Shown here: one piece after another, positions 9,901 through 25,828 of the stretch
Numbering within the stretch: position 1 is the first letter of the stretch
Layout of the letters: each line of letters begins with the position of its first letter
Origin: a virus
Length of the DNA: 54,052 nucleotides
Direction: 5' to 3' (one strand)
Virus genome (UHGV): UHGV-0210093
The notes under the pieces: generated by a model
The model's input: only the letters and a program-made list of their open reading frames with translations
Told to the model about the DNA's origin: nothing
Databases searched by the model: none
Position numbers and translations under genes: made by a program

Positions 9901-10071
9901 GAAGCACCTGAAAGCCTTATCCGTAAGATTGTAAGGGAAGAAACTGGTAACAGCTCACGCAAGATTGAAGTGCCGGTATATCTGAACCGTAGACAGATTG
10001 CGAAGGCCGTACTTGAAGAAGGAAAGAACATGAGAACACAGACGGGAAGAAATCCGTTTGAAATGGCTTAG
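6973..10071 (+). CDS. tail tape measure protein
   Basis: 1032 aa with a coiled-coil N-terminus, a Gly/Ser-rich linker (GGSGGGGGGAGGGSGSG), hydrophobic segments, and repeated W/G-rich C-terminal motifs. Position after the chaperones fits. Confidence 0.85.
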   Translation: MAQADGYIIIDTEINADGMKAGSKEVEAAVRRMANSVDDIGNKAKTALNKQADAFAKLNNEYAAQEQKVSELKKKIAEYGEQKVPTDEYREIQTQISQATQKLNSLKAAQDKFLSTGGKQSSSSFKRMQYDIEELENEIKYAKAELADLEASGGAFTLGSKTQEAAASMRTLQAEERKLADMNNRLHTSYNSVKGSIDDYKQKLMSAAPAQQKMANASEKASKSITKTGKAANSARFGIGRMLKMSLLMSIAFRAFSAAISAIKDGFTNLAQYSSSTNNSISMLWGSLETLKNSLATAFAPILSVVAPILSKFIDMLSTAASYVSMFFSFLSGKSTYTKAIAVQKDYAGSLKDTASGAKDAADGTKEAAEAAEEYLSPLDDINKMDKQDSGSDSGGSGGGGGGAGGGSGSGPLFEEVPIDNKFASLLDSVLDKLKQIRDIFMDGFWDGLGDYKPVLEELKKDLKSIGEHIKDIFTDKNVQEAAKRFAILFIYNMGKTVGSFVSIGLTIAANVVGGIESYLEENTDRIKKWLVRMFDLGSEISIIVGNLSATIAEIFQQTFGSQTAQNITGNIIGIFTTAFGEIILLATSFAKDVMDAIATPIIENKDKIIEAINNTLKPIEEITQSIEDFVQKLADKLTELYDEHIGPFINDVGSGLSEIGGTLLDTYNQYIAPILDQWAQKFDEVLNGPVGDAIDHIIDEIGRLIDGLNWLWNNVLIPLIQWLIENVIPVLAPIVAWIGDTLLSIVASVTGMADSVLKQLDGIIQFLTGVFTGDWAQALSGILLYVEGFKQNINIIFNFIKNQILDPLSKWLDGVFKVDWVKDFGVIGDYMNAWLANIQNIVAAVKQAFSGIVDFVNGVLSGDWQQAWDGIKNIFGGAWNGMLAIIKSPINGIIGLMNGLLRAAQIMQNGVANALNKMNISVPSWVTSLTGVSSIGFHISKWSAPHIPYLAQGAVIPPNKEFMAVLGDQKSGNNIEAPESLIRKIVREETGNSSRKIEVPVYLNRRQIAKAVLEEGKNMRTQTGRNPFEMA

Positions 10072-10523: not shown

Positions 10524-13500
10524 ATGAAGAATGTAAGCAACGAATTCAAAAACATCATAAAGTCAGGCGGTCCGTTCTATGCTTACGCATCGATTACACT
10601 GAAAAACGGTGAGAAACTATATCTTGATTCGGATAACGATTTCTTCATAAGCGGTAATGGATACGCAGAAGACGGAGGAGATGGATTCCCACTGGGATCC
10701 GCTCTCTCCAAGTCCGTTACGCTTGTCATTGATAACATCGATGAGAGATTTTCCAAGTATGATTTTTACTATGCACAGATTTCACTCTTCACTGAAGCTG
10801 ACATCGAAAGTAGAAGCTATGATGCATGGAGAGATGTGAAAGGTGAGGAAATTCTCGATGTCAATGGCAACACGATTATGCTGACGAAATCAAGAATCGA
10901 GAGATTGAACGAGGGTACATTTACAGTACTTGAGCCAACAGCGGTTGGAGATACGATAGAACTTGTAGGTTATGATTCAATGTACAAAGCAGATGCAGAC
11001 TTCACGTCTAAGCTATCTTATCCAACAACAGCTGGGCAGCTTCTAAGAGAAGCGTGTAGTACATGTAACATCATGCTTGGAAGTCCGAAGTTTAACAATG
11101 ACGATTTCGTGATTGAACAGGCTCCGGAAAAAGTGACTTGCCGAGAAGTAATCGGATATATAGCAATGCTTTCCGTTGGTAATGCTGTGATTCAGAACGG
11201 AACACTTGTTATTAAGAGTTACGACTTTTCTGCAATATCGAAGATTACAAATAGGGATGACTTAGTGGAAGATGCTGGCTATAGCATTTTGATGGACTAT
11301 CAGTCAGATCCGGACATTAGCACAGATCCTGTTGTAATCACTGGAATTGCGACCACAAAGAAAGTAGAAAACGAGAGTACAATCTTAATAAGAGGTACAG
11401 ATGATTATGCACTTGAAATCACGAATCCTCTTATTGAAGGACATGAAGATGATGCAATCAATCTGATTGGAGATGTATTGATCGGAGTTAAGCTGAGAGG
11501 TTTTAGTGGAGAATTCTTCCCTGATCCAACGATCGAATTCATGGATCTGGCTTGCGTGGTAGATAGGAAAGACAAAGTTTATCCAACATTTATCACATCC
11601 CATGAGTTCAGCTATCTCGGAAGCAGTTCGTTCTCTTGCGGAATCAAAGATCCGGAACGTCAAAAGAGTACTTATTACAGCGAAGCTAAAAAGGTATATG
11701 AAAAAGCTAATAAGGAAATCAAGCAGAATAAGACGGACTTTGAAGCAGCTGTCGAGAATCTGAATAAGACGCTTGAGAATGCATCTGGAATGTATTCGAC
11801 AGAATCACCACAGCCGGACGGAAGTATGATTACATACATCCATGATAAGCCGACAGTAGAAGAGTCCAAGAATGTAATCAAAGTTACATCTGAAGCCATT
11901 GGTATATCAAATGATGGCGGTAAGACATATCCTTACGGCTTATTCCTTACCGGTGATCTGATAACAAGAATCTTGTATGCTATCGGCATAAATGCTGATT
12001 ATATCAATTCTGGTTCTCTTACCGTAAAAGATAAGAATGGAAACATTACTTTCTACGCTGACACAGAGACAGGGCGAGTAACTATCAATGCAGAGTCCAT
12101 AAGCATCACAGGAAAGTCTGTAGAAGATATCTCAAACGGAATCGTAGATGATTTTGTCACAAATATCTATAAGAATGACATTGATGAGATTAAAGAGTCT
12201 GTCCGGAATAAGATAGAGACATGGTATCAAGATAGTGATCCGTCTGTAAACTGGAAAGACAAGTCCGAACATGAAGGTGACCTGTGGAAGGACACAAGAG
12301 ATAACAAAGAGTATATCTATCGTTCCGGCAAATGGGAAGAAATGAATGTGCCGGATGAAGTGTTTGACGAGATTGACAGCAAAGCTCAAATCTTCATCAA
12401 TGAGCCGACAACTCCTTATAAGTTGGGAGACTTGTGGTTTGAGTCTGAAACAAAAGAGTTGCTTACTTGTATCAAGAGCAGAGCAACAGGCTCATGCGTA
12501 AAGGCAGACTGGGAGAAACGTACCAAGTATACGGACGATTCCACAGTGAACACATTTATCACAAAGATTTACGAATCGGACATTGATGATATCCGGAATC
12601 AAATCGACCAAAAGATTGAAACTTGGTATCAGAGTACAGATCCATCCGTAAACTGGGGTGGAACTGTTGAAATGGCATGGTGCGATGTCAATGGCGAATC
12701 AATCCTTGACGTAAACGGAAATGAAATCATCTTGCTATACGAAGAGTCTAAGGCTGAACATGAAGGAGACTTGTGGAAAGACCTGTCTACGAACGATGAG
12801 TATATTTATCGTGGCGGTCAGTGGATGAAGATGCAAGTGCCGGACGAAGTCTTTGACGAGATTGATGGCAAGGCACAGATATTCATTAACACTCCTGTTC
12901 CGCCGTATCGTGTTGGTGACTTATGGTTTGATGCAGATACACAGGAGCTTCTCACTTGCGTGGAAAGCAGAGATAAAGGAAGCTGTGTAAAGTCCGACTG
13001 GCAGAAGAAAACCAAGTACACTGACGATAGCGGACTGAATACCTTCATTTCTGCGGTATACGATCCGAAGATTGCGGAATTACAGAGTCAGATTGATGGA
13101 CAGATTGAAACATGGTTCTATGACCACGAACCTAGCTTACAGAACGAACCGGCTGTGAATTGGACAACCAACGAGCAGAGAAAAGACCACGAAGGTGATC
13201 TCTTCTTCTGGAAGTCCACTGGATATTCCTACCGATTCTTACAGGACGGAGCGGTTTGGAAGTGGCAGATCGTACAGGATACAGATATTTCAAAAGCACT
13301 TGCAGCTGCGGAGAAAGCACAGGATACAGCAGATCATAAGCGTAGAGTCTTTGTAGTGACTCCACAGCCACCTTACGACATAGGTGACCTTTGGGTACAG
13401 GGTGATGATGGTGACATCATGCGTTGCTGTGTTGCAAGAAGTGAATCGGCTTCTTTCTCGGCATCAGACTGGGAAAAGGCATCAAAGTACACGGACGATA

Positions 13501-15962
13501 CAAGAGCCAATGAGGTACAGAAAGAGCTGGAAACAGTCAATAAGGACTTGCAGAATCAGATTGATGGCAAGATTGAGACATACAATCAATCTGCTGATCC
13601 GGCAGCTTCATGGACAACAGCTGAACTGAAAGCAAAGCATACTGGCGACTTATGGTACAACTCAAAAACCGAAGAAACAATGCGTTGGAACGGTTCAGCG
13701 TGGTCAAAGTTAAGTGATGCGGATGCGAAAGCTGCAAAGAACCTTGCTGTCACAAAGAAACGTGTATTCAGCGTAACTCCTTATCCACCTTATGATACAG
13801 ATGATTTATGGGTGCAAGGTACAAACGGTGACTTGATGCGATGCGTGACCTCATGTCAGAGCGGAGAGTATGTCGCATCTGATTGGGTCAAGGCTACCAA
13901 GTACACAGACGATTCCGCAATCAATAACTTTGTTAAGAATACTTATGCTGCCGACCTTGAGAATATCAAGAATCAGATTGATCAGAAGATAGAAACTTGG
14001 TTCCAACCTACTGACCCGTCACTTAATTGGACTGGAAAAGAAACACAGCCTCTTTGCGATATAAACGGGAATGACATCTTAGATGTTAGTGGAAAAAATA
14101 TCACAATCACTGTGGAAACCGAAAAAGCAACTCATGAGGGTGACTTGTGGAAGAATTCCAAAACTGGTGATGAATACATCTACAGAAGCGGAAATTGGGA
14201 AAAAATGCCAGTTCCAGACTCTGTATTCGATGAGATTGACGGTAAAGCGCAGATTTTCTCAACACAGCCAAAGCCACCGTATAGCGTGGATGATTTGTAT
14301 TTCACTGGAAATGATATCCTTGTCTGCCTAAAGGACAGAGAAACTGGTGAGTATGTAGCAAGTGATTGGCAGAAGAAAGATAATTATACAGACGATTCTA
14401 CAGTAACGGACTTCATCGAAAACATTTATGATCCGAAAATTGAAGATATCCAAAATCAGATTGATGGAAAGATTGATACGTACTATTGCGATTATGAGCC
14501 TGCGAATTCAAACCATCCAGCATCTGAGTGGACTACAGCTTACGAAAGACAGAAGCATGTTGGTGACCTCTTCTTTTGGAAGAACAAAGGTTTCACTTAC
14601 CGCTATATGAAAGTCGATACATCTTATCAGTGGGTGAGAGTGAAAGATGCAGACATCGTATCTGCGATGGAAACAGCATCAAAGGCTCAAGATACCGCAG
14701 ACGGTAAGAGAAGAAACTTTATTACAACTCCTGTGCCACCTTACGATGTTGGAGATTTGTGGACACAAGGAAACGACGGTGACTTGATGCGATGCCGAAC
14801 CGCAAGAACTAGTGGTAACTTTGTTTCTTCTGATTGGGTAAAGGCTACAAAGTATACTGATGATTCTGCGGTCGATAAGCTAAATAAATCTCTGACTTCC
14901 GAAGAAGTGTTTAACAGACTTACTGATAACGGGAAGAAACAAGGGATATATATGCAAGGCGATCAGTTGTATATCAACTTCTCTTATGGCAAGGGCGGTA
15001 CACTTACATTGGGAGGTGTAAACAATGAAAATGGCTCAATACAGATACTAGATGCCATAGGAGCGGAAGTTGGTAAATGGGATAAAGATGGACTGAACAT
15101 CCAAAAAGGCTCGATTTATGGAAGCACGATATATTTAGATAAAGAAAAAGCGTATGCGCTCATCGTTGGCCGCAACAATTCGAAAGAAATATTCACTATC
15201 GGAAGCATGGGGATGCATATTGATAATACTAATATGGGACTTCTCGCATCAGACAGTATGGTTGTTGACCTTATGGGCGGTTGGTTTCATGGTTTGAGAA
15301 TGAAAGCATCTAATAATGGAAGGGGATACGGTTCTTCAATTTCCCCGGAATGCTTCTCTATTGGATGGGCTGAGGATTTACAAGGATGGTCTGATGCAAT
15401 GTCAACAGTAAAATCGTACACATTTAGCATTAGCGAGAACTCAACAGGTTGCCTTTCAATTAGAATTAATGGAAGTAGTTATATTAATGATTATGTAGAT
15501 ATAAGCCCAAGAGAAATAAAAACAACTGGAACTAAAAACCGTGTTGTTCCAACAGAGAATTATTCGAACAGACTTCAATATTGCTACGAAACAGCTTCGC
15601 CAATGTTTGGAGACATCGGTGAAGGAATTACTGATGAGAACGGTGAATGTATCGTTGAAATCGGAGATATCTTCACGGAAACTGTAACAACACGCATTGA
15701 GTACCAGGTATTCTTGCAGAAAGAAGGGAAAGGAGATTTGTGGATTGAAAAGAAGGAAGAGAATTACTTCATTGTGCACGGAACTCCGAATCTGAAATTT
15801 GCATGGGAACTGAAAGCAAAACAGAAAGATTACGAATATGTAAATCTTGAGGAAGATGTTGACAGGGAAGAAAAATTACCTGAAAGCCCTGAGAACATAT
15901 TAAACGCGGAACTAGAAACCTTGATTAAGGAACAGGAGGAACTTTTAAATGAAACAGCTTAG
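10524..15962 (+). CDS. giant tail / receptor-binding-region protein: Tal-like (tail-tip) N-terminal part plus about 8 tandem ~120-aa repeats
   Basis: 1812 aa. The N-terminal ~370 aa resemble prophage tail endopeptidase-type proteins. The central part repeats a module with the pattern IETW..DPS.NW..HEGDLWK..YIYR.G.W..M.VPD.VFDEIDGKAQIF..P.PPY..GDLW..C...DW.K.TKYTDDS. Confidence 0.7.
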   Translation: MKNVSNEFKNIIKSGGPFYAYASITLKNGEKLYLDSDNDFFISGNGYAEDGGDGFPLGSALSKSVTLVIDNIDERFSKYDFYYAQISLFTEADIESRSYDAWRDVKGEEILDVNGNTIMLTKSRIERLNEGTFTVLEPTAVGDTIELVGYDSMYKADADFTSKLSYPTTAGQLLREACSTCNIMLGSPKFNNDDFVIEQAPEKVTCREVIGYIAMLSVGNAVIQNGTLVIKSYDFSAISKITNRDDLVEDAGYSILMDYQSDPDISTDPVVITGIATTKKVENESTILIRGTDDYALEITNPLIEGHEDDAINLIGDVLIGVKLRGFSGEFFPDPTIEFMDLACVVDRKDKVYPTFITSHEFSYLGSSSFSCGIKDPERQKSTYYSEAKKVYEKANKEIKQNKTDFEAAVENLNKTLENASGMYSTESPQPDGSMITYIHDKPTVEESKNVIKVTSEAIGISNDGGKTYPYGLFLTGDLITRILYAIGINADYINSGSLTVKDKNGNITFYADTETGRVTINAESISITGKSVEDISNGIVDDFVTNIYKNDIDEIKESVRNKIETWYQDSDPSVNWKDKSEHEGDLWKDTRDNKEYIYRSGKWEEMNVPDEVFDEIDSKAQIFINEPTTPYKLGDLWFESETKELLTCIKSRATGSCVKADWEKRTKYTDDSTVNTFITKIYESDIDDIRNQIDQKIETWYQSTDPSVNWGGTVEMAWCDVNGESILDVNGNEIILLYEESKAEHEGDLWKDLSTNDEYIYRGGQWMKMQVPDEVFDEIDGKAQIFINTPVPPYRVGDLWFDADTQELLTCVESRDKGSCVKSDWQKKTKYTDDSGLNTFISAVYDPKIAELQSQIDGQIETWFYDHEPSLQNEPAVNWTTNEQRKDHEGDLFFWKSTGYSYRFLQDGAVWKWQIVQDTDISKALAAAEKAQDTADHKRRVFVVTPQPPYDIGDLWVQGDDGDIMRCCVARSESASFSASDWEKASKYTDDTRANEVQKELETVNKDLQNQIDGKIETYNQSADPAASWTTAELKAKHTGDLWYNSKTEETMRWNGSAWSKLSDADAKAAKNLAVTKKRVFSVTPYPPYDTDDLWVQGTNGDLMRCVTSCQSGEYVASDWVKATKYTDDSAINNFVKNTYAADLENIKNQIDQKIETWFQPTDPSLNWTGKETQPLCDINGNDILDVSGKNITITVETEKATHEGDLWKNSKTGDEYIYRSGNWEKMPVPDSVFDEIDGKAQIFSTQPKPPYSVDDLYFTGNDILVCLKDRETGEYVASDWQKKDNYTDDSTVTDFIENIYDPKIEDIQNQIDGKIDTYYCDYEPANSNHPASEWTTAYERQKHVGDLFFWKNKGFTYRYMKVDTSYQWVRVKDADIVSAMETASKAQDTADGKRRNFITTPVPPYDVGDLWTQGNDGDLMRCRTARTSGNFVSSDWVKATKYTDDSAVDKLNKSLTSEEVFNRLTDNGKKQGIYMQGDQLYINFSYGKGGTLTLGGVNNENGSIQILDAIGAEVGKWDKDGLNIQKGSIYGSTIYLDKEKAYALIVGRNNSKEIFTIGSMGMHIDNTNMGLLASDSMVVDLMGGWFHGLRMKASNNGRGYGSSISPECFSIGWAEDLQGWSDAMSTVKSYTFSISENSTGCLSIRINGSSYINDYVDISPREIKTTGTKNRVVPTENYSNRLQYCYETASPMFGDIGEGITDENGECIVEIGDIFTETVTTRIEYQVFLQKEGKGDLWIEKKEENYFIVHGTPNLKFAWELKAKQKDYEYVNLEEDVDREEKLPESPENILNAELETLIKEQEELLNETA

Positions 15963-16149
15963 TGGTTTTTCAATTTTAAATGTAAATGGAATGGACAGAG
16001 CTACATTTACTTATGACGAGATTGACGAGAGTGGAAATCTTGTATCGCACAACAATAAGAAATCGTTCTATATCGTTGATGCTGAACTCAAAACTCATGT
16101 AGATGCGATTAGAAAATTTATCACAGTAAACAAGGTTGACGAGGCGTAA
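15949..16149 (+). CDS. hypothetical protein (66 aa) overlapping the giant tail gene stop
   Basis: ATG overlaps the TAG stop of the giant tail gene, suggesting translational coupling. Confidence 0.3.
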   Translation: MKQLSGFSILNVNGMDRATFTYDEIDESGNLVSHNNKKSFYIVDAELKTHVDAIRKFITVNKVDEA

Positions 16150-16206
16150 GGGCATGAATAATGCTCTTACCCTTTTAATAAATGATTCAATAAAGGAGAA
16201 TTAATC

Positions 16207-16701
16207 ATGGAATGGACAAAGTACACAACTAAAGAAGCACTGAAAGACAATGATGAGTTAATGATTCTCGACAAGGATGCAAATGCAAACAAGCGTACAC
16301 TGATGGACAAGGTATGGGATTATGTTGTCGATAAGATGACTACGGCAGTTATCGCAAAGTTAGGAACAACTAACAAGACTTTGATTGGGGCAGTTAATGA
16401 ATTAAATAGCAACCGCTTTAAAATTAGAAGCTACATTATAGATAATACAACTGCATTTAAAATTACAAAAGTCGTAAAATGGAAAAATTCAAATGACCAT
16501 ATGGTAGCTTTACTACTTGCCGATGTTAATCGTTATGCCGACATATACATAATTGGAAGGTTATCAGGAGTAAATATACTGTCAAAAACATCTAATGTTG
16601 ATACACCACAAATTGATAGTTCTTCAAGTACATTAACAGTTACACTTGGAGCCTGGAGTTCAGCACTTCTGATTTGTTTTGAATCCGTAACGATAAGTTA
16701 A
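16207..16701 (+). CDS. expressed copy of the shufflon-like variable tail/adhesin gene: constant N-terminus (~65 aa) + in-frame repeat encoding LNSN + current variable cassette V0
   Basis: Strong AAAGGAGA RBS. The gene reads through repeat L0 (16402-16413) in the same frame (xNSN) that every silent cassette uses. It stops on a TAA created inside repeat L1. Confidence 0.6.
   Translation: MEWTKYTTKEALKDNDELMILDKDANANKRTLMDKVWDYVVDKMTTAVIAKLGTTNKTLIGAVNELNSNRFKIRSYIIDNTTAFKITKVVKWKNSNDHMVALLLADVNRYADIYIIGRLSGVNILSKTSNVDTPQIDSSSSTLTVTLGAWSSALLICFESVTIS
16402..16413 (+). repeat. shufflon repeat L0 (TTAAATAGCAAC), inside the expressed gene
   Basis: Matches the 12-bp family consensus ATAAAATAGCAA; translated as LNSN. 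Confidence 0.6.
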
Positions 16702-16709
16702 ATAGCAAT
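16698..16709 (+). repeat. shufflon repeat L1 (TTAAATAGCAAT)
   Basis: Supplies the TAA stop of the expressed gene. The next cassette begins in frame through it. Confidence 0.6.
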
Positions 16710-16942
16710 CTTGGAAAGAAGAATACCATTGACGTTGGTGAAGTGTATTTGAATGAAAACGGTTATTGTCTCCTTACGGATAGATTTCCAGAACTATCAA
16801 ATGCGAATCTTATAACCATTGCTTACTACGAGACAATTGAACCAACGGCAGCCATATCAGTATATTGCTCATCTTATAATGCCTATATATTTGGCTCAAA
16901 AAACACGCATATAACTGGGTTAAAAATAATTTATTGGAAATG

Positions 16943-16954
16943 ATAAAATAGCAA
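16943..16954 (+). repeat. shufflon repeat L2 (ATAAAATAGCAA)
   Basis: Exact consensus. Identical to the reverse complement of R2 and R7. Confidence 0.6.
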
Positions 16955-17240
16955 TAAACAAAATGCTGCTATGTTAGTTGAAAACACTTCTAATCTTTGT
17001 GAATATATGCTTTCAAACTGTAGAAGAACTGGCATATGTTTTTATGCGATACCAAGCACAGTAAAAGTAGAAAATGGTTCTCCTGACGGAAATGGTGGTT
17101 TTGGAATTGCATGCAAAAGTACATCTGAAGATTATGGTATGCTTATTGTTTTTTCATATGGTAAAGCTGTGTATATGAAAATTAAATCAATAACATGGGA
17201 TAATTGGAAGAAAGTAAAATTTATCGAATGATTATTCTAT

Positions 17241-17252
17241 ATAAAATAGTTT
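17241..17252 (+). repeat. degenerate terminal repeat L3 (ATAAAATAGTTT)
   Basis: 9 of 12 positions match; ends the plus-strand cassette run. Confidence 0.35.
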
Positions 17253-17429
17253 CTAATATGTTTCGTCTTTTGTATTTTTCAAACATACACTCCCTATTTC
17301 ATCACCATCACACATTTTCCGAAAACATCATTTTTGCATATCTGAAAACACAGACTTCTCATAAAAAATGGTATAGCAAACAAGCCATCGAGAAATGGCT
17401 TTAAAAAATCAATATTGAATCAAGTCAGC

Positions 17430-18440
17430 TTACGCTATATATCGTCTGAAAGATGCTTTTACATTAGATTCACTTACAGTGACGTACATCATGGTTGTAT
17501 CCGGCTTTTGGTGTCCGGCATAAGCCTGAATCTCTTGTAGCGGTATTCCTCTACTTCCAGCATCCGTGAGTAGGGTTCTTCGGAACTTATGCGGATGCGC
17601 ATGAATATCTGTTTTTTTACCAAGTTTCGACAGCATTGACCATATAGCTTCCTTTCCCATCCGGTTGTGTGGCTTTCGGTTCGATACAAACAACGCCGGG
17701 TTCATATCATCCCTTGACATAAGGTACTTCTTGAGATGATATGCGCATTCATCCGTCAGATACACTTTCCTCTCTTTCTTTCCCTTTTCTCCGTAAATGA
17801 TTACTTCCTTGTTTCCCCAATCAATATCACTGCGGTTGAGTGCTACAACTTCACCGATACGTGCTGCTGTGGAGTACAGGAACTCCATAATTGCCACATC
17901 TCTCTGACTCTTAGCATTGCAACGTAGATGCTCCCTCTCTGCGGAGGTAAACGGCTTTTTGATGCGCTGTGGCACTTTCATGTGCTTGATGCGTCTCATT
18001 GGATTTTTGCTTATGAATCCCTCGTCAGAGAGCCATCCAAAGAATGATGAAAAGTATCTTCTAAGTGTGTCCATGTACGAGATAGACACTTTCCTTGTCT
18101 CTTGATACATGGCAAGGTAGTAGCGGATATCGTTTGTGGTTATGTCCTCAAATCTCTTGTTGAGATAGTTGACTAGCTTGGTTACACAGTCCACATAGCG
18201 GTCAATCGTACCTTGTGAGCAGTTCTCCAAGCGTTTACTTGCAATGAACAATTTGAGAATCTTATCCCAGTGAGATTGACTTGTTACCAATGAGGTACAT
18301 TCCTCTTGAAGTTTGACTCCGTGGAACGAGATATACAACACATTCTCCAATTTGTGCATCTGTTCCTCGGTCAGTTCCTCTTGCATCATGTTTACAACAT
18401 TTTTGATTATCATGTTAATGTCTTTTTCCATAAAAAACAC
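17430..18440 (-). CDS. tyrosine recombinase (XerD/Rci-like), candidate shufflon invertase
   Basis: 336 aa with catalytic-looking residues: ARIGE (Arg), HPHKFRRT (HxxR), GHQKPDTTMMYV (His and Tyr). It sits between the oppositely oriented repeat arrays. Confidence 0.8.
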   Translation of the reverse strand: MFFMEKDINMIIKNVVNMMQEELTEEQMHKLENVLYISFHGVKLQEECTSLVTSQSHWDKILKLFIASKRLENCSQGTIDRYVDCVTKLVNYLNKRFEDITTNDIRYYLAMYQETRKVSISYMDTLRRYFSSFFGWLSDEGFISKNPMRRIKHMKVPQRIKKPFTSAEREHLRCNAKSQRDVAIMEFLYSTAARIGEVVALNRSDIDWGNKEVIIYGEKGKKERKVYLTDECAYHLKKYLMSRDDMNPALFVSNRKPHNRMGKEAIWSMLSKLGKKTDIHAHPHKFRRTLLTDAGSRGIPLQEIQAYAGHQKPDTTMMYVTVSESNVKASFRRYIA

Positions 18441-18536
18441 CCCTTTCTAAGCCAATTATGACTCAAAAAGAGGTGAAATTAAATGCTTTATTTCGGTTCA
18501 TGAAATAGGGAGTGTATATGGTTAAAAATCACGCTT

Positions 18537-18548
18537 TTGTTATTTTAT
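18537..18548 (-). repeat. degenerate repeat R-1 (TTGTTATTTTAT)
   Basis: One mismatch to consensus; next to the recombinase promoter region. Confidence 0.35.
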
Positions 18549-18809
18549 GATACGGTTGCAATCCAAGAAATGTTTGGTTTTGCACCTGATGTGGTACAAG
18601 CGTTTGAAAGCTTTATTGTAAAGCCATTTTTTGTTACAGAAGCGTAATCTACAAACGCAGTCAAATCACCATATGTAGTAATGCTTGAGCCACTTTTCAA
18701 AGTACACACGACTGTCGGTATGGTATTGAATGGCTTTTTAAAAACGACATCCACTGCTTGCGTACTGTTTGCTGCAATTCCTACAGCTCCAGTTGTACCA
18801 GATTGTGTC

Positions 18810-18821
18810 TTGCTATTTAAT
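18810..18821 (-). repeat. shufflon repeat R0 (TTGCTATTTAAT)
   Basis: 12-bp family member in inverted orientation relative to the L repeats. Confidence 0.55.
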
Positions 18822-19145
18822 GACTATTGTAGTTGTCTAGGCAATCCACCGATTTTAAGCACTGTTAATTTTACATAACAACTTGATTCACTTGATGGAA
18901 CATCTACGCTATATGTTCCGTTGCCATTGGCAACCGAAAATGACAGCAGCTTGTTTGTTGATGTACTCCATAATTCGTGTCTTGTATCGACATTATCACT
19001 CACATTTGCAAACGTAGTTTTTTGTCCAATTTTCACTGGAGCATGAATTATACAATATGGTTCGTAACTTATAATACTCCCATTACTGTTAATATATTTA
19101 CTGTTTTCAATTTTAAGTGGTATTGCGAATTTCAAAACCAAACTC

Positions 19146-19157
19146 TTGCTATTTTAT
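19146..19157 (-). repeat. shufflon repeat R1 (TTGCTATTTTAT)
   Basis: Exact consensus. Confidence 0.6.
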
Positions 19158-19440
19158 TAGAAACGCATTTATATCGTGTACATCTTTTTGCTGTATTGTA
19201 ACATCGCATGTTAGTACTTTCTCAGACACAATATATTTGAAATTCGATGCGTTACTAGCATTAGCAGAAATTAAATTTGCGGAATACGTACTTCCATATC
19301 CAATTAAAACACATGCATAAACAGAACTTGATACTGCAAATGTCAAACAAATAATACCGAATTCTGTATTATCGATAGAAAATTGTGCAGATAATTTATT
19401 GTTTTCAATTGTTATATTGACTGGTATCTGCTTAAATTTA

Positions 19441-19452
19441 TTGCTATTTTAT
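19441..19452 (-). repeat. shufflon repeat R2 (TTGCTATTTTAT)
   Basis: Exact consensus. Confidence 0.6.
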
Positions 19453-19764
19453 ATAAAAATAATCATGCCAGTAGGCTTGACGTTGGCAATTGATTTCGTT
19501 GTTATTGTTACAATTAATTGTTTTCTTTCCCAAGAAAATGAAAACATATTATCTGAAAAAGTCTTATTTAACGAGAATGCAATATTCTTCTCGGATTTAT
19601 AAGCATGTCCAATGGCTGTTATGCAGTAATCATCTTGTATATGACCGCAAGCCATTATAACAATATAGTGTCTATCTGATTCGATTTTTGATAAATCTAT
19701 TTTTGTTTCACATTCACCATTCATTATGGCATCTATGTAATATCTGAAAATCGCCTTGTTTTGA

Positions 19765-19776
19765 TTGCTATTTAAT
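19765..19776 (-). repeat. shufflon repeat R3 (TTGCTATTTAAT)
   Basis: Its reverse complement is identical to L1 (TTAAATAGCAATC). Confidence 0.6.
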
Positions 19777-20017
19777 CTTTAGCGTTATAATTTTGAAAGT
19801 AAAAGCCCCTGTTGGACTGTTGTTTACAAAGCATAAAGACCAATTATTTGTTCCTTCTGTACCACTCACACCTCGTGAGATAGTGTATATCCATCCATTT
19901 CTATCTATTGATTGGATTGAAATAATCATGTATTCATCTGCATTCACACCTAAATCATACGTATCTTTTTCAGATTCGGCAGTGATAACTTTGTTAACAG
20001 ATTCGATTATAGGAATA

Positions 20018-20029
20018 TTGCTATTTTAT
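20018..20029 (-). repeat. shufflon repeat R4 (TTGCTATTTTAT)
   Basis: Exact consensus. Confidence 0.6.
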
Positions 20030-20314
20030 AACTCGGTAACACTACCATCATTAGTTATGAGAATGAACGATGACCATGCACGCATAGGCATACTTATCGT
20101 ATTACCACTTTTTGATGGTTGAGGAGAATCTGCATTTCCAATACTTATTTGTTTGATTCCAGAACTAGCACCTACGGCATATATGTTTGTATATCTATTT
20201 TGATCTACGATAAGTATTCCAGCAAAGTGACCACTAAATGTTAACCGTACAGTTTTTTCTTCACTATCAACAAAACCAGAATAATATCGCAGACCATTTG
20301 ATTGTAGTATCGTG

Positions 20315-20327
20315 TTGCTATTTTTAT
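20315..20327 (-). repeat. shufflon repeat R5 (TTGCTATTTTTAT, one extra T)
   Basis: Consensus with a 1-nt insertion. Confidence 0.5.
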
Positions 20328-20645
20328 GAAAACATTTACCTTAAAACATACGTCAAAAAAATGCGTAATTTGCCTTTAACTGTATGTTTTCCGAACACTT
20401 TTATATTTCCATGCGTGTCTACAACGAGCTGAACAAAAGCTTTCGGATCATAAATATACCCAATGGTATATATATCTGATGCTGGTTTGTATCTTTCCGT
20501 AATTGTACATAATATCATATCTTCTTTAATATCAATAATATTTGTAACTATATTAACTGTCATAACACCGTAGTTAGCAATAAAATTTACGTTGTTTATA
20601 TTAGTATTCTCAGAGAAGAATTCGCCAACAGTATTTTTTATTGTC

Positions 20646-20657
20646 TTGCTATTTTAT
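20646..20657 (-). repeat. shufflon repeat R6 (TTGCTATTTTAT)
   Basis: Exact consensus. Confidence 0.6.
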
Positions 20658-20897
20658 TGTCAATACCAACACCGAATTTGTAAACCTTGTATTTCTGTAT
20701 TAGGAGACCCGAAAACATAAGCACCACCGTTTTCACCACGATATATATTTATAGCTGAAATTGGTGTTATTAATAAATAATAAGAGATTTCTACTATTTT
20801 TGTATAGATCGGATATTTTTCATTATCATTGATGCGATAATATCCCGATTCATCTAGACTGATAGTGCCTAAATCAATAACAACATATTGTAATTTA

Positions 20898-20909
20898 TTG
20901 CTATTTTAT
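20898..20909 (-). repeat. shufflon repeat R7 (TTGCTATTTTAT)
   Basis: Exact consensus. Confidence 0.6.
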
Positions 20910-21216
20910 AGAAAAGGCTGGCTTGTTTATAGAATATGATATTAATGCAGTACCAGTAACCCACGAACCGATTCTTACTGAAATTACAGTGTTGTTAACT
21001 GATGGTGTTACTTCTTCACCATAAATTGTGCTTATTTTTATTTCTGTAATGTTTTTTCCGTCCTCTGTGTACACACTAATATAAATCATTCGTTTTTTGT
21101 CCATTAAAAGAGCTTGTACAGAGTTGGATCTATCGCCTAAATTAATTTCAATGGTTGTGCGATTAGATGTATTATAATTGGTTGAATAAGAATTTACATT
21201 TCCGTTTAATAACTTA

Positions 21217-21228
21217 TTGCTATTTTAC
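21217..21228 (-). repeat. shufflon repeat R8 (TTGCTATTTTAC)
   Basis: One mismatch to consensus. Confidence 0.55.
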
Positions 21229-21486
21229 TGAAGAGCTGTCCAAGAACACCACTTGCCAGCACCGTCAGTTGTTCGAAACCACACAGAACATTTTTTGCTA
21301 TTCGATACTCGTCTTTCGAAAAATACGCATAATCTACTAGTTTTTCCATCACTTGCCATAATGCAAAAACCACCAGTACCTCCTGGAGTGTCTTTTGCAT
21401 TTACGCCTACATAGGAAAAACCGTAAGGAGTATCGTTTATGGACGTCATCACTATTGGCAAATTTTTATATTCGCTCATTGCACTA

Positions 21487-21498
21487 TTGCTATTTTAT
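21487..21498 (-). repeat. shufflon repeat R9 (TTGCTATTTTAT)
   Basis: Exact consensus. Confidence 0.6.
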
Positions 21499-21750
21499 TT
21501 CCAATCATTCCACACTTCATCCGTTGAATTCCATATTCTAGTTTTTACAACCAAAGTGTATAAATACTGAATCGCCACTTGATACTTAATGTCATCCGAA
21601 AGTGAACCAATACAGAAAATAAACCATATTGAATCGTCGTTTTTTGGTTTATGCAAAGCTGTACGAAACGCTATAGCAGATTCTCCAACAGGGAGATCAT
21701 TGCAATCTTTATAAATGCCTGAAGAATAAATCTGTTTTGAGCATATTTTA

Positions 21751-21762
21751 TTGCTATTTTAT
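21751..21762 (-). repeat. shufflon repeat R10 (TTGCTATTTTAT)
   Basis: Exact consensus. Confidence 0.6.
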
Positions 21763-21997
21763 GGTTTTCCACCCGGTAGATGAAACGTATTGAGCAAATG
21801 CCACTGTATGTTCAGCATTGGCTATTCCTATAAAATTGGCACTTCCGTTATTAACCATGACAATTCCCCATGCCCAGCCACCGAATAATCCGCCTATAGT
21901 TCCCCAAACAGGAAGAAACTCGCATTGGTATTTATTATTCTCAGTGAAAAAATCGTTGATATTATCATCTAAGCGTTTTGCTTTACAGAGCATCTTC

Positions 21998-22009
21998 TTG
22001 CTATTTTAT
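21998..22009 (-). repeat. shufflon repeat R11 (TTGCTATTTTAT)
   Basis: Exact consensus. Confidence 0.6.
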
Positions 22010-22291
22010 TCCTTAATTTCTTTAATCGTTCCTTTCGCTATTGAACCACCCAGTATGCAAGCGTAATGCGTGTATTTAGATTGGAATGTAATTCGCATTG
22101 TAAAATCATTTATTTCAATTTTGACTTGACCGACCGTGGTGTTTGTCGTTTGTGATACGGGTATGTTATATAGTTGTAAGTCTTGATTGATTGAGAGTAT
22201 AATAACTCCATAAAAAGTGGCTTTTGACTTCACCGTTATTTCTATACCTTTTACATCAATTCCACCAATTACTTTTATACTACCAAAAGTT

Positions 22292-22303
22292 TTGCTATTT
22301 CAT
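22292..22303 (-). repeat. shufflon repeat R12 (TTGCTATTTCAT)
   Basis: One mismatch; last repeat before the lysis genes. Confidence 0.5.
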
Positions 22304-22430
22304 CTATGACTTCAATATGGGTACAATCATCCGCTAAAAATCCAGTACAATTATCTTAAGATTGCATAAATATCATAATTAGCTGTATTAACATTAAGTC
22401 AGAACTATAAGTTGTTGAAGGAGAATGGTG

Positions 22431-22739
22431 ATGGAATATGTAGGACGAGAAGAACATACAGAATTTGCCAAACGTATCGAGGACGAGCAGCATAGACAGA
22501 ATAGACGGATTGAGCTGTTAGAGGAATCTGTAAAACAGAACACAGCACTTACGGTATCTGTTGAGAAGCTTGCGAATAATATGGAAAGTATGGCAAACGA
22601 ACAGGCGAAACAAGGAGAGAGACTAGAAGCCTTAGAGAGCAGAGATGGAGAAATGTGGAGAACAGTGGTCAAATATGTTCTCACAGCGGCTCTCGGACTT
22701 GTGATTGGATTGGTAGCAACGCAGATTGGATTAGGATAA
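22431..22739 (+). CDS. XhlA-like lysis-associated membrane protein
   Basis: AAGGAGA RBS. Coiled-coil N-terminus and C-terminal transmembrane helix, immediately upstream of the holin. Confidence 0.45.
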   Translation: MEYVGREEHTEFAKRIEDEQHRQNRRIELLEESVKQNTALTVSVEKLANNMESMANEQAKQGERLEALESRDGEMWRTVVKYVLTAALGLVIGLVATQIGLG

Positions 22740-22750
22740 GGAGAAAGAAC

Positions 22751-23044
22751 ATGGAACAGATTATCAATTATGTAAAGCCGGAACTCATCGTAGTGGCTAT
22801 TGTACTGTACTTTATCGGTATGGCTATCAAACAGAGTGAGACTATCGCAGACAAGTATATTCCTAGCATCTTAGGAATTGCTGGAATCGTGATCTGCGGT
22901 ATCTACGTGATTGCAACTTGTACTCTTGGAACTGGACAGGATATCGCAATGGCAATGTTTACCGCAATCGTACAAGGAATTTTAGTGGCTGGATTAAGTA
23001 ACTATGTCAACCAGTTAATCAAACAGAGTGGAAAGGAAGAGTAA
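22751..23044 (+). CDS. holin
   Basis: GGAGAAAG RBS. 97 aa with three predicted transmembrane segments, directly upstream of the endolysin. Confidence 0.6.
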   Translation: MEQIINYVKPELIVVAIVLYFIGMAIKQSETIADKYIPSILGIAGIVICGIYVIATCTLGTGQDIAMAMFTAIVQGILVAGLSNYVNQLIKQSGKEE

Positions 23045-23046
23045 TT

Positions 23047-23223
23047 ATGACAGAGCAGACAGTAAAAGAAATTATTAAGAGTTTCGCTTACGGGTTATCC
23101 GCAAAGGAAATCTCAGACAACGAAGGAACGTCGTTGGAAACAATGCAGAAATTTGCAGAGGAACACGCAGCGGAGATCGAGCAGAAGAAAGCAGAGCTGA
23201 AAGAAGGTGGCTGGTATGAGTAA
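23047..23223 (+). CDS. small hypothetical protein (58 aa) in the lysis cassette
   Basis: ATG-to-TAA ORF between holin and endolysin; it overlaps the endolysin start. Confidence 0.3.
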   Translation: MTEQTVKEIIKSFAYGLSAKEISDNEGTSLETMQKFAEEHAAEIEQKKAELKEGGWYE

Positions 23224-24286
23224 ACTTATTATTGATGTCAGCTATCATAACGGGGTCATTAACTGGGAAAGAGTCAAAGCGTCAGGTTGTGCCGGTGCAA
23301 TCCTCCGCTGTGGATATGGAGATGATATCGCATCACAGGATGATAAACAGTGGATTCGTAACCTTGCTGAGTGCGAAAGACTTGGAATTCCGGTGGGAGT
23401 CTATCTGTACAGCTATGCGACTTGTGACAGACAGGCGCAGAGCGAACTTGACCATATCTTGAGATTAATCAAAGGTCATACATTCCAGTTGCCTATCTTC
23501 CTTGATGTGGAAGAACCAGGCACACAGAACTATGCTCCTAGATGTTGTGAAATCGTCTGTGAAGGACTAAAAGCGAATGGATATACTCCGGGAATCTACG
23601 CTTCATTGAGTTGGTTCAACAACTACCTTGGCAGTGTTCGTGGTAAATACATCGAATGGATGGCAAGATACAAGAATCTTCCAGAAGATACATACAATGG
23701 TCAGTATGCTATTTGGCAGTATTCTTCTGATGGACAGGTAGATGGAGTCAGTGGAAGAGTAGATGTAAACCATTGCTATATGGAATTCGGTGGAAGTGTT
23801 CAGCCTGTTACACCTTCTGTTAAGCCGGCACCGGCTACAAAGAAAGATTTAGGACAGGTCGATATTACATATCAGGCTTATACAACTAAGTGGTGGGATC
23901 CAGTAACCAACAAAGCGGATTGGGCCGGTAAAGGTGATGATGTTCCGATTAAGTGGCTTGCTATCAAGGTAAGCAGAGGAAGCATCCGCTGTAGAGTATA
24001 CACAAGAAAGAATGGTTGGCTTCCGTACCTTACATTCGGCAACAGCTATGATCTGAATGACAAGGTAAATGGAATCCTCGGAGATGGTTCAGAGATTCTT
24101 GCTATTGAGTTGTATTACATCACACCGGATGGATATAAGTACAAGATGGTTCACTACAGAGTTTCTGTACAGAACAACAAGAACTTCTATGCAGATCAGG
24201 TTGACACACTGAAAGCAAGTGGCATGGACGGATACGCAGGAGACAAATACAGATTCATTGACAAGTTCCAGGCTTGGATTGAGTAA
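23216..24286 (+). CDS. endolysin: GH25 muramidase with a C-terminal cell-wall-binding region
   Basis: N-terminal DVSxHNGxINW and later DVE/ Y.S.SW motifs are typical of GH25 lysozymes; about 150 aa of extra C-terminal domain. The ATG at 23216 has an AAGGTGG RBS. Confidence 0.8.
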   Translation: MSKLIIDVSYHNGVINWERVKASGCAGAILRCGYGDDIASQDDKQWIRNLAECERLGIPVGVYLYSYATCDRQAQSELDHILRLIKGHTFQLPIFLDVEEPGTQNYAPRCCEIVCEGLKANGYTPGIYASLSWFNNYLGSVRGKYIEWMARYKNLPEDTYNGQYAIWQYSSDGQVDGVSGRVDVNHCYMEFGGSVQPVTPSVKPAPATKKDLGQVDITYQAYTTKWWDPVTNKADWAGKGDDVPIKWLAIKVSRGSIRCRVYTRKNGWLPYLTFGNSYDLNDKVNGILGDGSEILAIELYYITPDGYKYKMVHYRVSVQNNKNFYADQVDTLKASGMDGYAGDKYRFIDKFQAWIE

Positions 24287-25660: not shown

Positions 25661-25828
25661 ATAATCATCTCCTTTTAAGTATAAAAATAACAGCCATACA
25701 ATAGAACAACAGTTCTGATTGATTGACTGCTCCGAAGATGATACAATATTACTGTTCATATAATTCGCACTGCTCTTCGGAGTTGTGTATCAACCGTTCC
25801 TGCGCCAACAGGAGCGGTTTTATTTTAT

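What the first reader, a model, noticed from the sequence alone, without database searches (positions are those of the whole stretch)
16683..17404. Present arrangement looks like the product of an earlier inversion: two silent cassettes lie in direct orientation downstream of the expressed copy, and the recombinase sits inside the invertible segment
If all silent cassettes originally lay in one inverted array, an inversion between L0 and an internal R repeat would do three things. It would place the chosen cassette in the expression site. It would carry the cassettes that followed it into direct orientation behind it, which fits L1 and L2. It would also flip the recombinase gene. The current map fits this exactly: expressed V0, then L1 and L2 on the plus strand, then the recombinase on the minus strand, then the remaining array. 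The recombinase orientation is therefore coupled to the isoform state.
Basis: inference. Interest (0 to 1): 0.55.

Follow-up and report, generated by a model that had tools for sequence, protein, structure and literature searches.

The report
Phage shufflon with self-flipping recombinase
A gut-bacterium prophage swaps the tip of a small tail protein among at least 16 alternative endings by flipping DNA around a recombinase gene that sits in the middle of the flipped segment, and that gene can also flip by itself, so its direction does not record which ending is in use.

Summary
Two in-frame silent cassettes (16701-16943, 16947-17231) lie in direct orientation behind the expressed 164-aa gene (16207-16701). 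A Xer-like tyrosine recombinase follows on the minus strand (17430-18431), then 13 inverted cassettes run to 22303. All are bounded by the 12-nt core ATWAAATAGCAA.

The inversion model is supported. About 30 public contigs carry this prophage at 99-100% identity, with cassette order scrambled and breakpoints exactly at the cores. In every contig, cassettes left of the recombinase are direct and those right of it are inverted. The recombinase occurs in both orientations relative to the tail and lysis genes (13 versus 6 contigs). There is no second expression site.

The claimed coupling between recombinase orientation and isoform state is wrong. The recombinase module is flanked by its own perfect 18-nt inverted repeat (17285-17302 / 18500-18517). 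It flips alone at that repeat (14 versus 13 contigs). L004 and L005 have the same cassette order and differ only by this flip. Equivalent repeats flank the recombinase in relatives with 61-81% identical enzymes.

This is a large, pivot-organised variant of the Rin/R64 type of shufflon with a nested self-inversion. Who catalyses the nested flip, and what it is for, are inferred rather than shown.

The parts
16207..16400 (+). Constant 5' part (Rc, 66 codons) of the expressed small tail protein gene, with a good RBS upstream
   Evidence: ORF 16207-16701. The N-terminal 66 aa are invariant or nearly so in 262 homologues that carry many different C-termini.
16401..16412 (+). L0 core site ATTAAATAGCAA inside the expressed gene (reads L-N-S-N)
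   Evidence: It is the junction between Rc and six different window cassettes, plus two not in the window, in public contigs.
16413..16701 (+). Expressed cassette V0 (C-terminal 98 aa, stop 16699-16701)
   Evidence: Found inverted on the other side of the recombinase in L001-L005.
16697..16708 (+). L1 core site GTTAAATAGCAA, overlapping the V0 stop codon
   Evidence: Used as a breakpoint in L001.
16709..16943 (+).
   Evidence: 39% identical to cassette R8. Seen fused to Rc in public protein P0050.
16943..16954 (+). L2 core site ATAAAATAGCAA
   Evidence: Breakpoint in L002-L005 and L007.
16955..17231 (+). It stays attached to the recombinase module wherever it occurs.
   Evidence: It is the expressed cassette in L010, L035 and L070.
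17241..17252 (+). Decayed core L3 (ATAAAATAGTTT). No cassette follows it and it is never a breakpoint.
   Evidence: Sequence. No HSP boundary falls here in any contig.
17285..17302 (+). Left arm of the nested inverted repeat IR' (ATACACTCCCTATTTCAT), of R polarity
   Evidence: pair I12 (18 nt, 100% complementary). Breakpoint of the recombinase-only inversion.
17382..17401 (-). Terminator-like hairpin just after the recombinase stop codon, inside the IR'-bounded module
17430..18431 (-). Xer-like tyrosine recombinase, 333 aa
   Evidence: Pfam. NCBIfam XerA 2.3e-58, below the curated cut-off. PDB 4a8e 4e-27. The identical protein is listed in 91 blocks of the public contig collection.
18438..18475 (-). 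Leader hairpin that pairs the recombinase Shine-Dalgarno sequence, followed by U6 and then the ATG
   Evidence: dG -24.7 kcal/mol, z = -7.2. Equivalent hairpins with different sequence occur in 6 relatives.
18500..18517 (+). Right arm of IR' (ATGAAATAGGGAGTGTAT), of L polarity. It shares ATGAAATAG with the standard core.
18537..18548 (+). Decayed core R0 (TTGTTATTTTAT) holding the stop codon of cassette R1. Never a breakpoint.
18545..22303 (-). Array of 13 inverted silent cassettes R1-R13. Their cores start on the plus strand at 18810, 19146, 19441, 19765, 20018, 20315, 20646, 20898, 21217, 21487, 21751, 21998 and 22292.
   Evidence: R1 is an H-type lectin domain (4.6e-10). The core at 20315 has a 1-nt insertion and is never used, so R6 and R7 are always linked.

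Best explanation
What it is. This is a multiple-inversion system (shufflon) in a temperate siphophage-type prophage of Mediterraneibacter faecis. It exchanges the C-terminal ~80-110 aa of a small tail protein that is probably the receptor-binding tip.

Layout. The constant 5' part ends in a 12-nt core. To its right come one or more cassettes in direct orientation, each preceded by a core of the same polarity. Next comes the recombinase module. Last come the remaining cassettes, inverted, each with a core of opposite polarity.

Main inversion. The Xer-like tyrosine recombinase recombines any left core with any right core, with strand exchange inside the invariant AAATAGCAA. Each event inverts everything between the two cores. 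It puts a new cassette at the expression site, carries the cassettes that followed it into direct orientation, moves formerly direct cassettes into the inverted array, and flips the recombinase. The pattern 'all left cores, pivot, all right cores' is preserved by every such event. This part is shown by comparing isoforms.

Nested inversion. The recombinase module (17303-18499) is flanked by its own 18-nt perfect inverted repeat, IR'. IR' keeps the first 9 nt of the core (ATGAAATAG) and differs in the next positions. The two arms recombine only with each other and flip the recombinase gene alone, so its orientation is uncoupled from cassette state. The inversion itself is shown. That the same enzyme catalyses it, and that a different overlap sequence keeps the two site classes apart, are inferred.

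Expression of the recombinase. It is probably autonomous and kept low. The module carries a terminator. A conserved hairpin masks the ribosome-binding site, and a -10-like box sits in its loop. This suggests that only transcripts started inside the module are translated, which would make expression independent of orientation. This is inferred and is the weakest step.
For: Anatomy.

Isoforms. The identical 333-aa recombinase is encoded on many public contigs. L001-L010 are 99-100% identical to the window, with cassette order scrambled and HSP boundaries overlapping by about 12 nt at the cores. Nineteen more contigs came from a metagenome scan.

Invariant. Across about 30 contigs there is no exception to 'direct left of the recombinase, inverted right of it'.

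Crossover mapping. Positions 1-3 of the 12-mer always travel with the upstream flank and the base after the 12-mer travels with the cassette, so exchange lies within AAATAGCAA.

Natural negative controls. The core at 20315 with a 1-nt insertion and the decayed cores at 17241 and 18537 are never breakpoints.

Expression. Twelve window cassettes are found at 90% identity or more fused to Rc in public proteins. R2 and R4 are at the expression site in L002 and L003.

Nested flip. The HSPs w16943-17302(+), w17285-18517(-) and w18500-18820(+) occur in L002, L005, L006 and L009. L004 and L005 differ only by this flip. The two states are found 14 versus 13 times. Both states also occur in a strain with a different inner cassette (L036 versus L077). 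Contigs L022, L081 and L043 begin exactly at IR'.

Conservation. IR' pairs sit in the same position in relatives: L023 at 81% recombinase identity, L011 and L022 at 76%, L079-L081 at 74%. Standard cores or another inverted repeat sit there in phage B (64%) and in a Wansuia hejianensis prophage (61%).

Hairpins.
Against: All isoforms come from different samples or assemblies. No read-level data from one clone were available. Metagenome contigs can be chimeric paths through a mixed population, so whole-contig cassette orders are less secure than individual junctions.

Catalysis by this recombinase is not demonstrated for either site class. The window also encodes a second tyrosine recombinase, the prophage integrase at 24557-25759.

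Array size varies from 3 to 17 cassettes among contigs. This implies deletions between direct cores (which R64 Rci avoids), strain differences or assembly artefacts.

The promoter scan gave no more hits than shuffled sequence, so the internal-promoter idea rests only on a conserved -10-like box.

The protein's role as a receptor binder rests on context and one H-lectin cassette. The structure model was poor and had no significant PDB match.
Confidence: 0.8

Rival explanations
1. Only core-to-core inversions occur, so the orientation of the recombinase gene is a parity record of the cassette state and is coupled to which isoform is expressed.
For: Every left-core by right-core inversion must flip the recombinase, because of the geometry. 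The window and L001 show such a flip of the block 16700-18821.
Against: L004 and L005 have identical cassette order and expressed cassette but opposite recombinase orientation. All four combinations of module orientation and recombinase orientation are observed. The breakpoints lie at the 18-nt IR', not at cores.
Confidence: 0.05
2. The differences among contigs are fixed strain alleles or assembly artefacts, not ongoing programmed inversion. The direct cassettes would then be a frozen relic.
For: No within-clone read data were available. The contigs come from different samples. Array content differs from 3 to 17 cassettes, which could reflect strain history.
Against: Flanks and cassettes are 99-100% identical, yet each cassette has up to five different upstream neighbours among 11 sequences, always joined exactly at a core. 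A 12-nt repeat is too short to mislead assemblers. Contig L006 ends in a junction of the opposite IR' state, and contigs L022, L043 and L081 break exactly at IR', as expected for mixed populations. In 65 of the 91 collection blocks that list the identical recombinase, the longest contig carrying it is under 2 kb. The recombinase ORF, all 16 cassettes and the cores are intact.
Confidence: 0.1
3. The nested IR' inversion is an on/off switch for the recombinase. The promoter lies outside the module, so flipping disconnects the gene, giving bursts of shuffling followed by locking.
For: In relatives the recombinase is co-oriented with the tail genes in every contig seen: 8/8 for phage B, 6/6 for the Wansuia prophage, and also L011, L023 and L079. 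An absorbing state would produce that pattern. IR' lies only 68 nt upstream of the ATG.
Against: In this phage the two IR' states are equally frequent (14 versus 13), and both orientations relative to the tail genes occur (13 versus 6). The module contains its own terminator, and a conserved hairpin with a -10-like box in its loop. Upstream of IR', on either side, lies a silent cassette that points towards the module, with no evident promoter.
Confidence: 0.15
4. The nested flip has no function. IR' would be the decaying remnant of the two inner cores that bound the recombinase in simpler relatives, still similar enough to recombine.
For: In phage B and the Wansuia prophage the recombinase is flanked by ordinary sites that serve as inner ends of two invertible segments. 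The 50:50 state distribution is what neutral flipping would give.
Against: IR' arms are perfect or differ at one base over 16-18 nt in four lineages with 74-100% identical recombinases, and both arms have changed together between lineages. The truly unused cores next to them (17241, 18537) have decayed.
Confidence: 0.25

Closest known systems
Rin shufflon of Bifidobacterium (and Eggerthella lenta) prophages (PMC6109161, PMC8778435)
   Same: It is phage-encoded and uses a tyrosine recombinase. A constant N-terminal coding part of a tail receptor-binding protein is joined to alternative C-terminal cassettes. The crossover site is short (11-12 bp), asymmetric and lies upstream of each cassette. 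Inversions were seen by comparing prophage and virion sequences.
   Different: Rin has 5 variable cassettes, and rin sits at the end of the array opposite Rc. Here there are 16 cassettes in the window and at least 17 in the population. The recombinase is at the pivot inside every invertible segment, and it has its own nested inverted repeat. The core sequence differs (TTCCCTAACCC versus ATWAAATAGCAA). The host phylum differs (Actinomycetota versus Bacillota). Homology between the two recombinases beyond the superfamily was not tested.
R64/IncI plasmid shufflon with Rci (own knowledge; cited in PMC9881135)
   Same: It is a multiple-inversion system run by a tyrosine recombinase. The sites are short and asymmetric. 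It selects the C-terminus of an adhesin (PilV) from alternative segments.
   Different: In R64, rci lies outside the shufflon, and sites alternate in polarity so that segments invert individually or in groups. Here all cores of one polarity lie on one side and every inversion spans the recombinase. The target is a phage tail protein.
Type I restriction-modification hsdS invertons with an internal invertase, such as the S. pneumoniae cod/ivr locus, E. faecalis, S. agalactiae and T. denticola (PMC7672463)
   Same: The tyrosine invertase gene lies within the invertible region and flips with it.
   Different: The target is a specificity subunit rather than a phage protein. There are 2-4 partial genes. 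No separate inverted repeat that flips the invertase gene alone is described in the passages read.
Hin and the H segment of Salmonella; Gin, Cin and Min of phages Mu, P1 and p15B (own knowledge; Min, Gin and Cin summarised in PMC6109161)
   Same: Hin is a recombinase gene that lies inside the segment it inverts. Gin, Cin and Min vary phage tail-fibre C-termini by inversion, and Min is a multi-segment shufflon.
   Different: All are serine recombinases that need an enhancer and Fis. The H segment carries a promoter for a neighbouring gene. Here the self-inverting module is nested in a second, larger inversion system and uses a tyrosine recombinase.

Membership tests
Shufflon / multiple-inversion system (functional class) | Three or more copies of a short crossover site in both orientations, bounding coding segments | tested here: met
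   3 cores of one polarity and 13 of the other, 12 nt each. 18 matches against 1.37 expected.
Shufflon / multiple-inversion system (functional class) | Alternative arrangements exist whose breakpoints fall in the sites | tested here: met
   About 30 public contigs at 99-100% identity have scrambled order with junctions at the cores. This is between-sample evidence, not within-clone evidence.
Shufflon / multiple-inversion system (functional class) | One constant 5' coding part is fused in frame to whichever cassette is adjacent | tested here: met
   All 16 cassettes are open in the Rc frame. Public proteins fuse Rc to 12 window cassettes and to many others.
Shufflon / multiple-inversion system (functional class) | Inversion is favoured and deletion between direct sites is avoided (as for Rci) | tested here: inconclusive
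   Three direct cores coexist in the window without loss, but array size varies from 3 to 17 among contigs. This could be deletion, strain difference or chimeric assembly.
Tyrosine recombinase superfamily, Xer-like simple recombinases | Phage_integrase catalytic domain plus SAM-like core-binding domain, with no arm-binding domain | tested here: met
   PF00589 1.7e-30 and PF13495 1.2e-13. Best NCBIfam model is XerA at 197.9 bits, below its 220-bit cut-off, so it is not an equivalog. PDB 4a8e Xer-like 4e-27. Individual catalytic residues were not checked.
Rin shufflon family (Bifidobacterium prophages) | rix core TTCCCTAACCC | tested here: not met
   The core here is ATWAAATAGCAA.
Rin shufflon family (Bifidobacterium prophages) | Recombinase gene at the end of the cassette array, outside the invertible segments | tested here: not met
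   The recombinase lies between the two site sets and flips.
Rin shufflon family (Bifidobacterium prophages) | Recombinase orthologous to Rin | not tested
Serine invertase systems (Hin/Gin/Cin/Min) | Resolvase-type serine recombinase | tested here: not met
   Only tyrosine-recombinase domains were found in the recombinase (17430-18440, 336-aa reading from the GTG).
Phage receptor-binding protein | Tail-module location and a carbohydrate- or receptor-binding head domain | tested here: inconclusive
   The gene follows the tape measure and a 1812-aa tail protein and precedes the holin and endolysin. Cassette R1 is an H-type lectin domain. The other cassettes have no family hit. The V0 model has pLDDT 61.6 and no PDB match with E below 0.02.

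The most novel reading that the evidence does not exclude
The recombinase gene is a self-contained, self-inverting module nested inside the shufflon it drives. One tyrosine recombinase would use two orthogonal site classes that share the binding part (ATNAAAT) but differ in the overlap. Cassette shuffling and enzyme orientation would then be independent switches. A ribosome-binding-site hairpin with an internal promoter would make recombinase output insensitive to read-through from the late operon in either orientation. This would be a natural two-layer inversion circuit not described for any shufflon.
Probability: 0.35. Interest if true: 0.72.

Novelty: new variant of a known kind. Interest (0 to 1): 0.6.

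Why it matters
Inversion systems run by tyrosine recombinases that vary phage receptor-binding proteins have so far been described in only a few actinobacterial prophages, each with about five variants. This one belongs to a common human-gut Lachnospiraceae species and offers at least 17 alternative tips. Homologues show a pan-repertoire of many more, and the system is visibly active across public metagenomes. It bears on how temperate gut phages track variation in host surface glycans.

The pivot arrangement gives a simple rule for reading such loci: direct cassettes on one side of the recombinase, inverted on the other. The nested self-inversion is conserved in relatives and uses sites that differ from the main cores only after the first 7-9 nt. 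That is a natural example of orthogonal sites for what is probably one recombinase, which interests both mechanistic work and recombinase-based circuit design.

It also explains why this region fragments in short-read assemblies.

Tried and rejected
- Megablast of 15900-22400 against the phage collection found no match.
- The first look-up of the recombinase from the GTG at 18440 found nothing. The ATG at 18431 is the start used in public gene calls.
- Pfam, PHROGs and NCBIfam gave no family for the expressed 164-aa protein. Pfam on ten cassettes found only the H-lectin domain in R1.
- The AlphaFold model of the V0 isoform was weak (pLDDT 61.6), and Foldseek against the PDB gave nothing below E = 0.02. 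No fold assignment is made.
- The promoter scan of 16100-18900 gave 13 hits against 10.7 in shuffles, which is uninformative.
Folding each one separately showed the hairpins.
- Of the 47 metagenome hits to the 18-mer, 28 had no similarity to the locus. This is roughly what I estimate for chance matches of an 18-mer in a collection of that size (my estimate, not a tool output), so they were discarded.
- A second expression site on the right was rejected, because there is an in-frame stop just upstream of the outermost core.
- RecA-type homologous recombination at IR' was considered unlikely, because 18 nt is too short (own knowledge).
- A literature search for natural cases of a recombinase gene flipping alone inside a shufflon found nothing relevant in the library.
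Full report
CONTEXT. The window is a temperate siphophage-type genome. It holds a tape measure gene (6973-10071), a 1812-aa tail protein (10524-15962), a 66-aa ORF, and then the gene in question (16207-16701). After the region of interest come a holin (22655-23044), a GH25 endolysin (23207-24286) and an integrase (24557-25759, minus strand). Sources name close homologues as Mediterraneibacter faecis, family Lachnospiraceae.

CHECK OF THE OBSERVATION. A 12-nt core, TTGCTATTTWAT or its complement ATWAAATAGCAA, occurs 18 times with at most 1 mismatch, against 1.37 expected. Sixteen copies lie between 16401 and 22303. Three in one polarity are left of the recombinase (16401, 16697, 16943). Thirteen in the other polarity are right of it (18810 to 22292, including a 2-mismatch copy at 20315). 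In addition there are decayed copies at 17241 and 18537.

In the frame of the expressed gene the core reads ..L-N-S-N/K. Every core is followed by an open cassette of 80-109 codons that stops at or in the next core. Stop codons make up 5-7% of codons in the array, so this is far beyond chance.

The recombinase (17430-18431, minus strand) is a Xer-like tyrosine recombinase. It lies between the two site sets, so it is inside any segment that can invert.

TEST OF THE INVERSION MODEL WITH PUBLIC ISOFORMS. The identical 333-aa recombinase is listed in 91 blocks of the contig collection. Ten loci (L001-L010) are 99-100% identical to the window outside and inside the cassettes. Their cassette order is scrambled, and BLAST segments abut with overlaps of about 12 nt at the cores. 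A metagenome scan with the 18-mer described below added 19 more contigs.

Four results follow from block maps of all these contigs.
(1) Without exception, cassettes left of the recombinase are direct and those right of it are inverted. This is the invariant expected if every event is a left-core by right-core inversion.
(2) V0, C1 and C2 appear inverted on the right in L001-L005, so the direct cassettes of the window are movable.
(3) The window and L001 share the block C1-C2-recombinase-R1 (16700-18821) at 100% identity in opposite orientation, bounded by two cores.
(4) The recombinase is co-directional with the tail and lysis genes in 13 contigs and antisense in 6, the window included.

The proposed refutation is absent: on the minus strand the outermost core reads A-TGA-AAT-AGC, with a stop in frame, and the right flank carries a plus-strand gene.

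WHERE THE EXCHANGE HAPPENS. Cores differ at positions 1-3 (ATT, ATA, GTT, GTA, ATG). In all junctions these three bases travel with the upstream flank, and the first base after the 12-mer travels with the cassette. Exchange therefore lies within the invariant AAATAGCAA.

Three natural controls agree. The core at 20315 has a 1-nt insertion (ATAAAAATAGCAA) and is never used, so R6 and R7 are always linked. The decayed cores at 17241 (..TAGTTT) and 18537 (..TAACAA) are never breakpoints.

EXPRESSION. 262 homologues share the 66-aa N-terminus, and most have unrelated C-termini. Twelve window cassettes occur at 90% identity or more fused to that N-terminus in public proteins. R2 and R4 are at the expression site in L002 and L003. 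A seventeenth cassette (X, 88 codons) is present in six loci and absent from the window. Only V0/R6 and C1/R8 are detectably related, at about 40% identity. R1 is an H-type lectin domain. This fits a carbohydrate-binding tip, but the receptor-binding role is otherwise inferred from context.

A perfect 18-nt inverted repeat, IR', flanks the recombinase module: 17285-17302 is ATACACTCCCTATTTCAT and 18500-18517 is its complement (pair I12).

In L002, L005, L006 and L009 the segment 17285-18517 is inverted relative to both neighbours (C2 and R1), with breakpoints in IR'. L004 and L005 have the same expressed cassette and the same order of all 14 cassettes, and differ only by this flip. All four combinations of module orientation and recombinase orientation occur. 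Over all contigs the two IR' states are found 14 and 13 times. Both also occur in a strain with a different inner cassette (L036 versus L077).

Contig L006 ends in a junction of the opposite state. Contigs L022, L043 and L081 begin exactly at IR'. In 65 of the 91 collection blocks that list the identical recombinase, the longest contig carrying it is under 2 kb. This is what mixed orientations within samples would produce.

RELATION OF IR' TO THE CORES. In L polarity the right arm reads ATGAAATAGGGA.., against ATGAAATAGCAA for the outermost core. The first 9 nt are the same and the next differ. The polarity of the IR' pair is opposite to that of the surrounding arrays (L L L [R' rec L'] R R R). 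If IR' recombined with cores it would place inverted cassettes on the left, which is never seen.

The simplest reading is one enzyme and two site classes kept apart by non-identical overlap regions, since tyrosine recombinases need overlap identity between partners (established knowledge). This is inference.

CONSERVATION. Relatives keep an inverted repeat in the same place, about 45-70 nt upstream of the start codon and about 120-130 nt downstream of the stop.
- L023 (81% recombinase identity): TTGCTATTCCGATTTAAT.
- L011 and L022 (76%): CCTCTTCCCATTTAAT.
- L079-L081 (74%): CCTATTCCCATTTAAT. L079 also has the same pivot architecture, with 2 left and 7 right cores.
- Phage B (64%) and a Wansuia hejianensis prophage (61%): the recombinase is flanked by ordinary sites that are the inner ends of two invertible segments.

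This looks like the simpler ancestral layout. The window type then appears as an expansion of the outer arrays together with divergence of the inner sites into a private pair.

EXPRESSION OF THE RECOMBINASE (WEAKEST PART). The module contains a terminator-like hairpin after the stop codon. It also has a leader hairpin that pairs the Shine-Dalgarno sequence (dG -24.7 kcal/mol, z = -7.2), followed by U6 and the ATG. Six relatives have equivalent hairpins built from different sequence (z from -2.3 to -8.1). All have a -10-like hexamer in the loop or 5' arm.

I propose that transcripts starting inside the hairpin are translatable, while read-through transcripts from either flank are not. That would make recombinase output independent of orientation. 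The promoter scan itself was uninformative.

COMPARISON WITH KNOWN SYSTEMS. The nearest described system is the Rin shufflon of Bifidobacterium prophages (PMC6109161), also noted in Eggerthella lenta prophages (PMC8778435). It has a tyrosine recombinase, an 11-bp site, a constant N-terminal part and five variable C-terminal cassettes, with rin at the far end of the array. R64/Rci is the classical tyrosine-recombinase shufflon. Min, Gin and Cin do the same job in coliphages with serine recombinases. A recombinase inside its own invertible region is known for hsdS invertons (PMC7672463), is stated generally in PMC9881135, and applies to Hin (own knowledge).

New here are the size of the repertoire, the pivot layout, and the nested private inversion of the recombinase gene. 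I found no description of the last in the library. I rate it a new variant of a known kind.

CAVEATS. All comparisons are between assemblies from different samples. Metagenome contigs may be chimeric paths, so individual junctions are firmer than whole orders. Array sizes of 3 to 17 cassettes may reflect deletions, strain differences or such chimeras. No experiment links the recombinase to either inversion.

Noticed in passing
window 18438-18475 (minus strand); L022 29-68, L011 7950-7985, L023 7950-7992, L024 7953-8001, L079 6950-7000, L082 6950-7004: A strong hairpin in the recombinase leader pairs the Shine-Dalgarno sequence (dG -24.7 kcal/mol, z = -7.2) and is followed by U6 and then the ATG. 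Six relatives with 61-81% identical recombinases have equivalent hairpins made of different sequence, each with a -10-like hexamer in the loop or 5' arm.
   Followed up: partly
window 10524-15962; L001-L003, L007: The 1812-aa tail protein contains internal repeats of about 470-490 nt (D1-D7). A 1649-aa allele in several contigs lacks exactly one 489-nt unit.
   Followed up: no
window 20315-20326: The core of cassette R6 has a 1-nt insertion (ATAAAAATAGCAA). R6 and R7 stay linked in all seven sequences that carry them. An R6-type cassette is nevertheless found fused to the constant part in a public protein (P0007), so the site is intact in some strains.
   Followed up: partly
L001 11732-11988; also L003, L004, L005, L008, L009, L038, L052, L077: A seventeenth cassette (X, 88 codons, NSNRLSAIRIG...) flanked by normal cores is absent from the window. 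Fifty-six of the 120 listed homologues of the expressed protein carry C-termini matching no window cassette, so the pan-repertoire is much larger.
   Followed up: partly
L010, L040 (3-4 cassettes); L002 (13); L004 (14); window (16); L003 (17): Array size differs widely among contigs that are otherwise 99-100% identical. This may mean deletions between directly repeated cores, strain differences or chimeric assembly paths.
   Followed up: no
expression site in 15 contigs: The two cassettes that adjoin the recombinase are over-represented at the expression site: R1 six times and C2 three times. This suggests that flipping the minimal C2-recombinase-R1 unit between L0 and the nearest right core is the commonest event.
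   Followed up: no
L024-L031 (phage B), L082-L087 (Wansuia hejianensis prophage), L011, L023, L079: In relatives the recombinase is co-oriented with the tail genes in every contig seen. In phage B this holds even though segments have moved across the recombinase. In the window phage both orientations occur (13 versus 6). Unexplained.
   Followed up: partly
L036 6788-6847, L077 512-571, L021 3' end, L053 2207-2266: Some strains carry a different cassette next to IR' in place of R1 (at least two other types), so the innermost cassettes are not fixed across the population.
   Followed up: no
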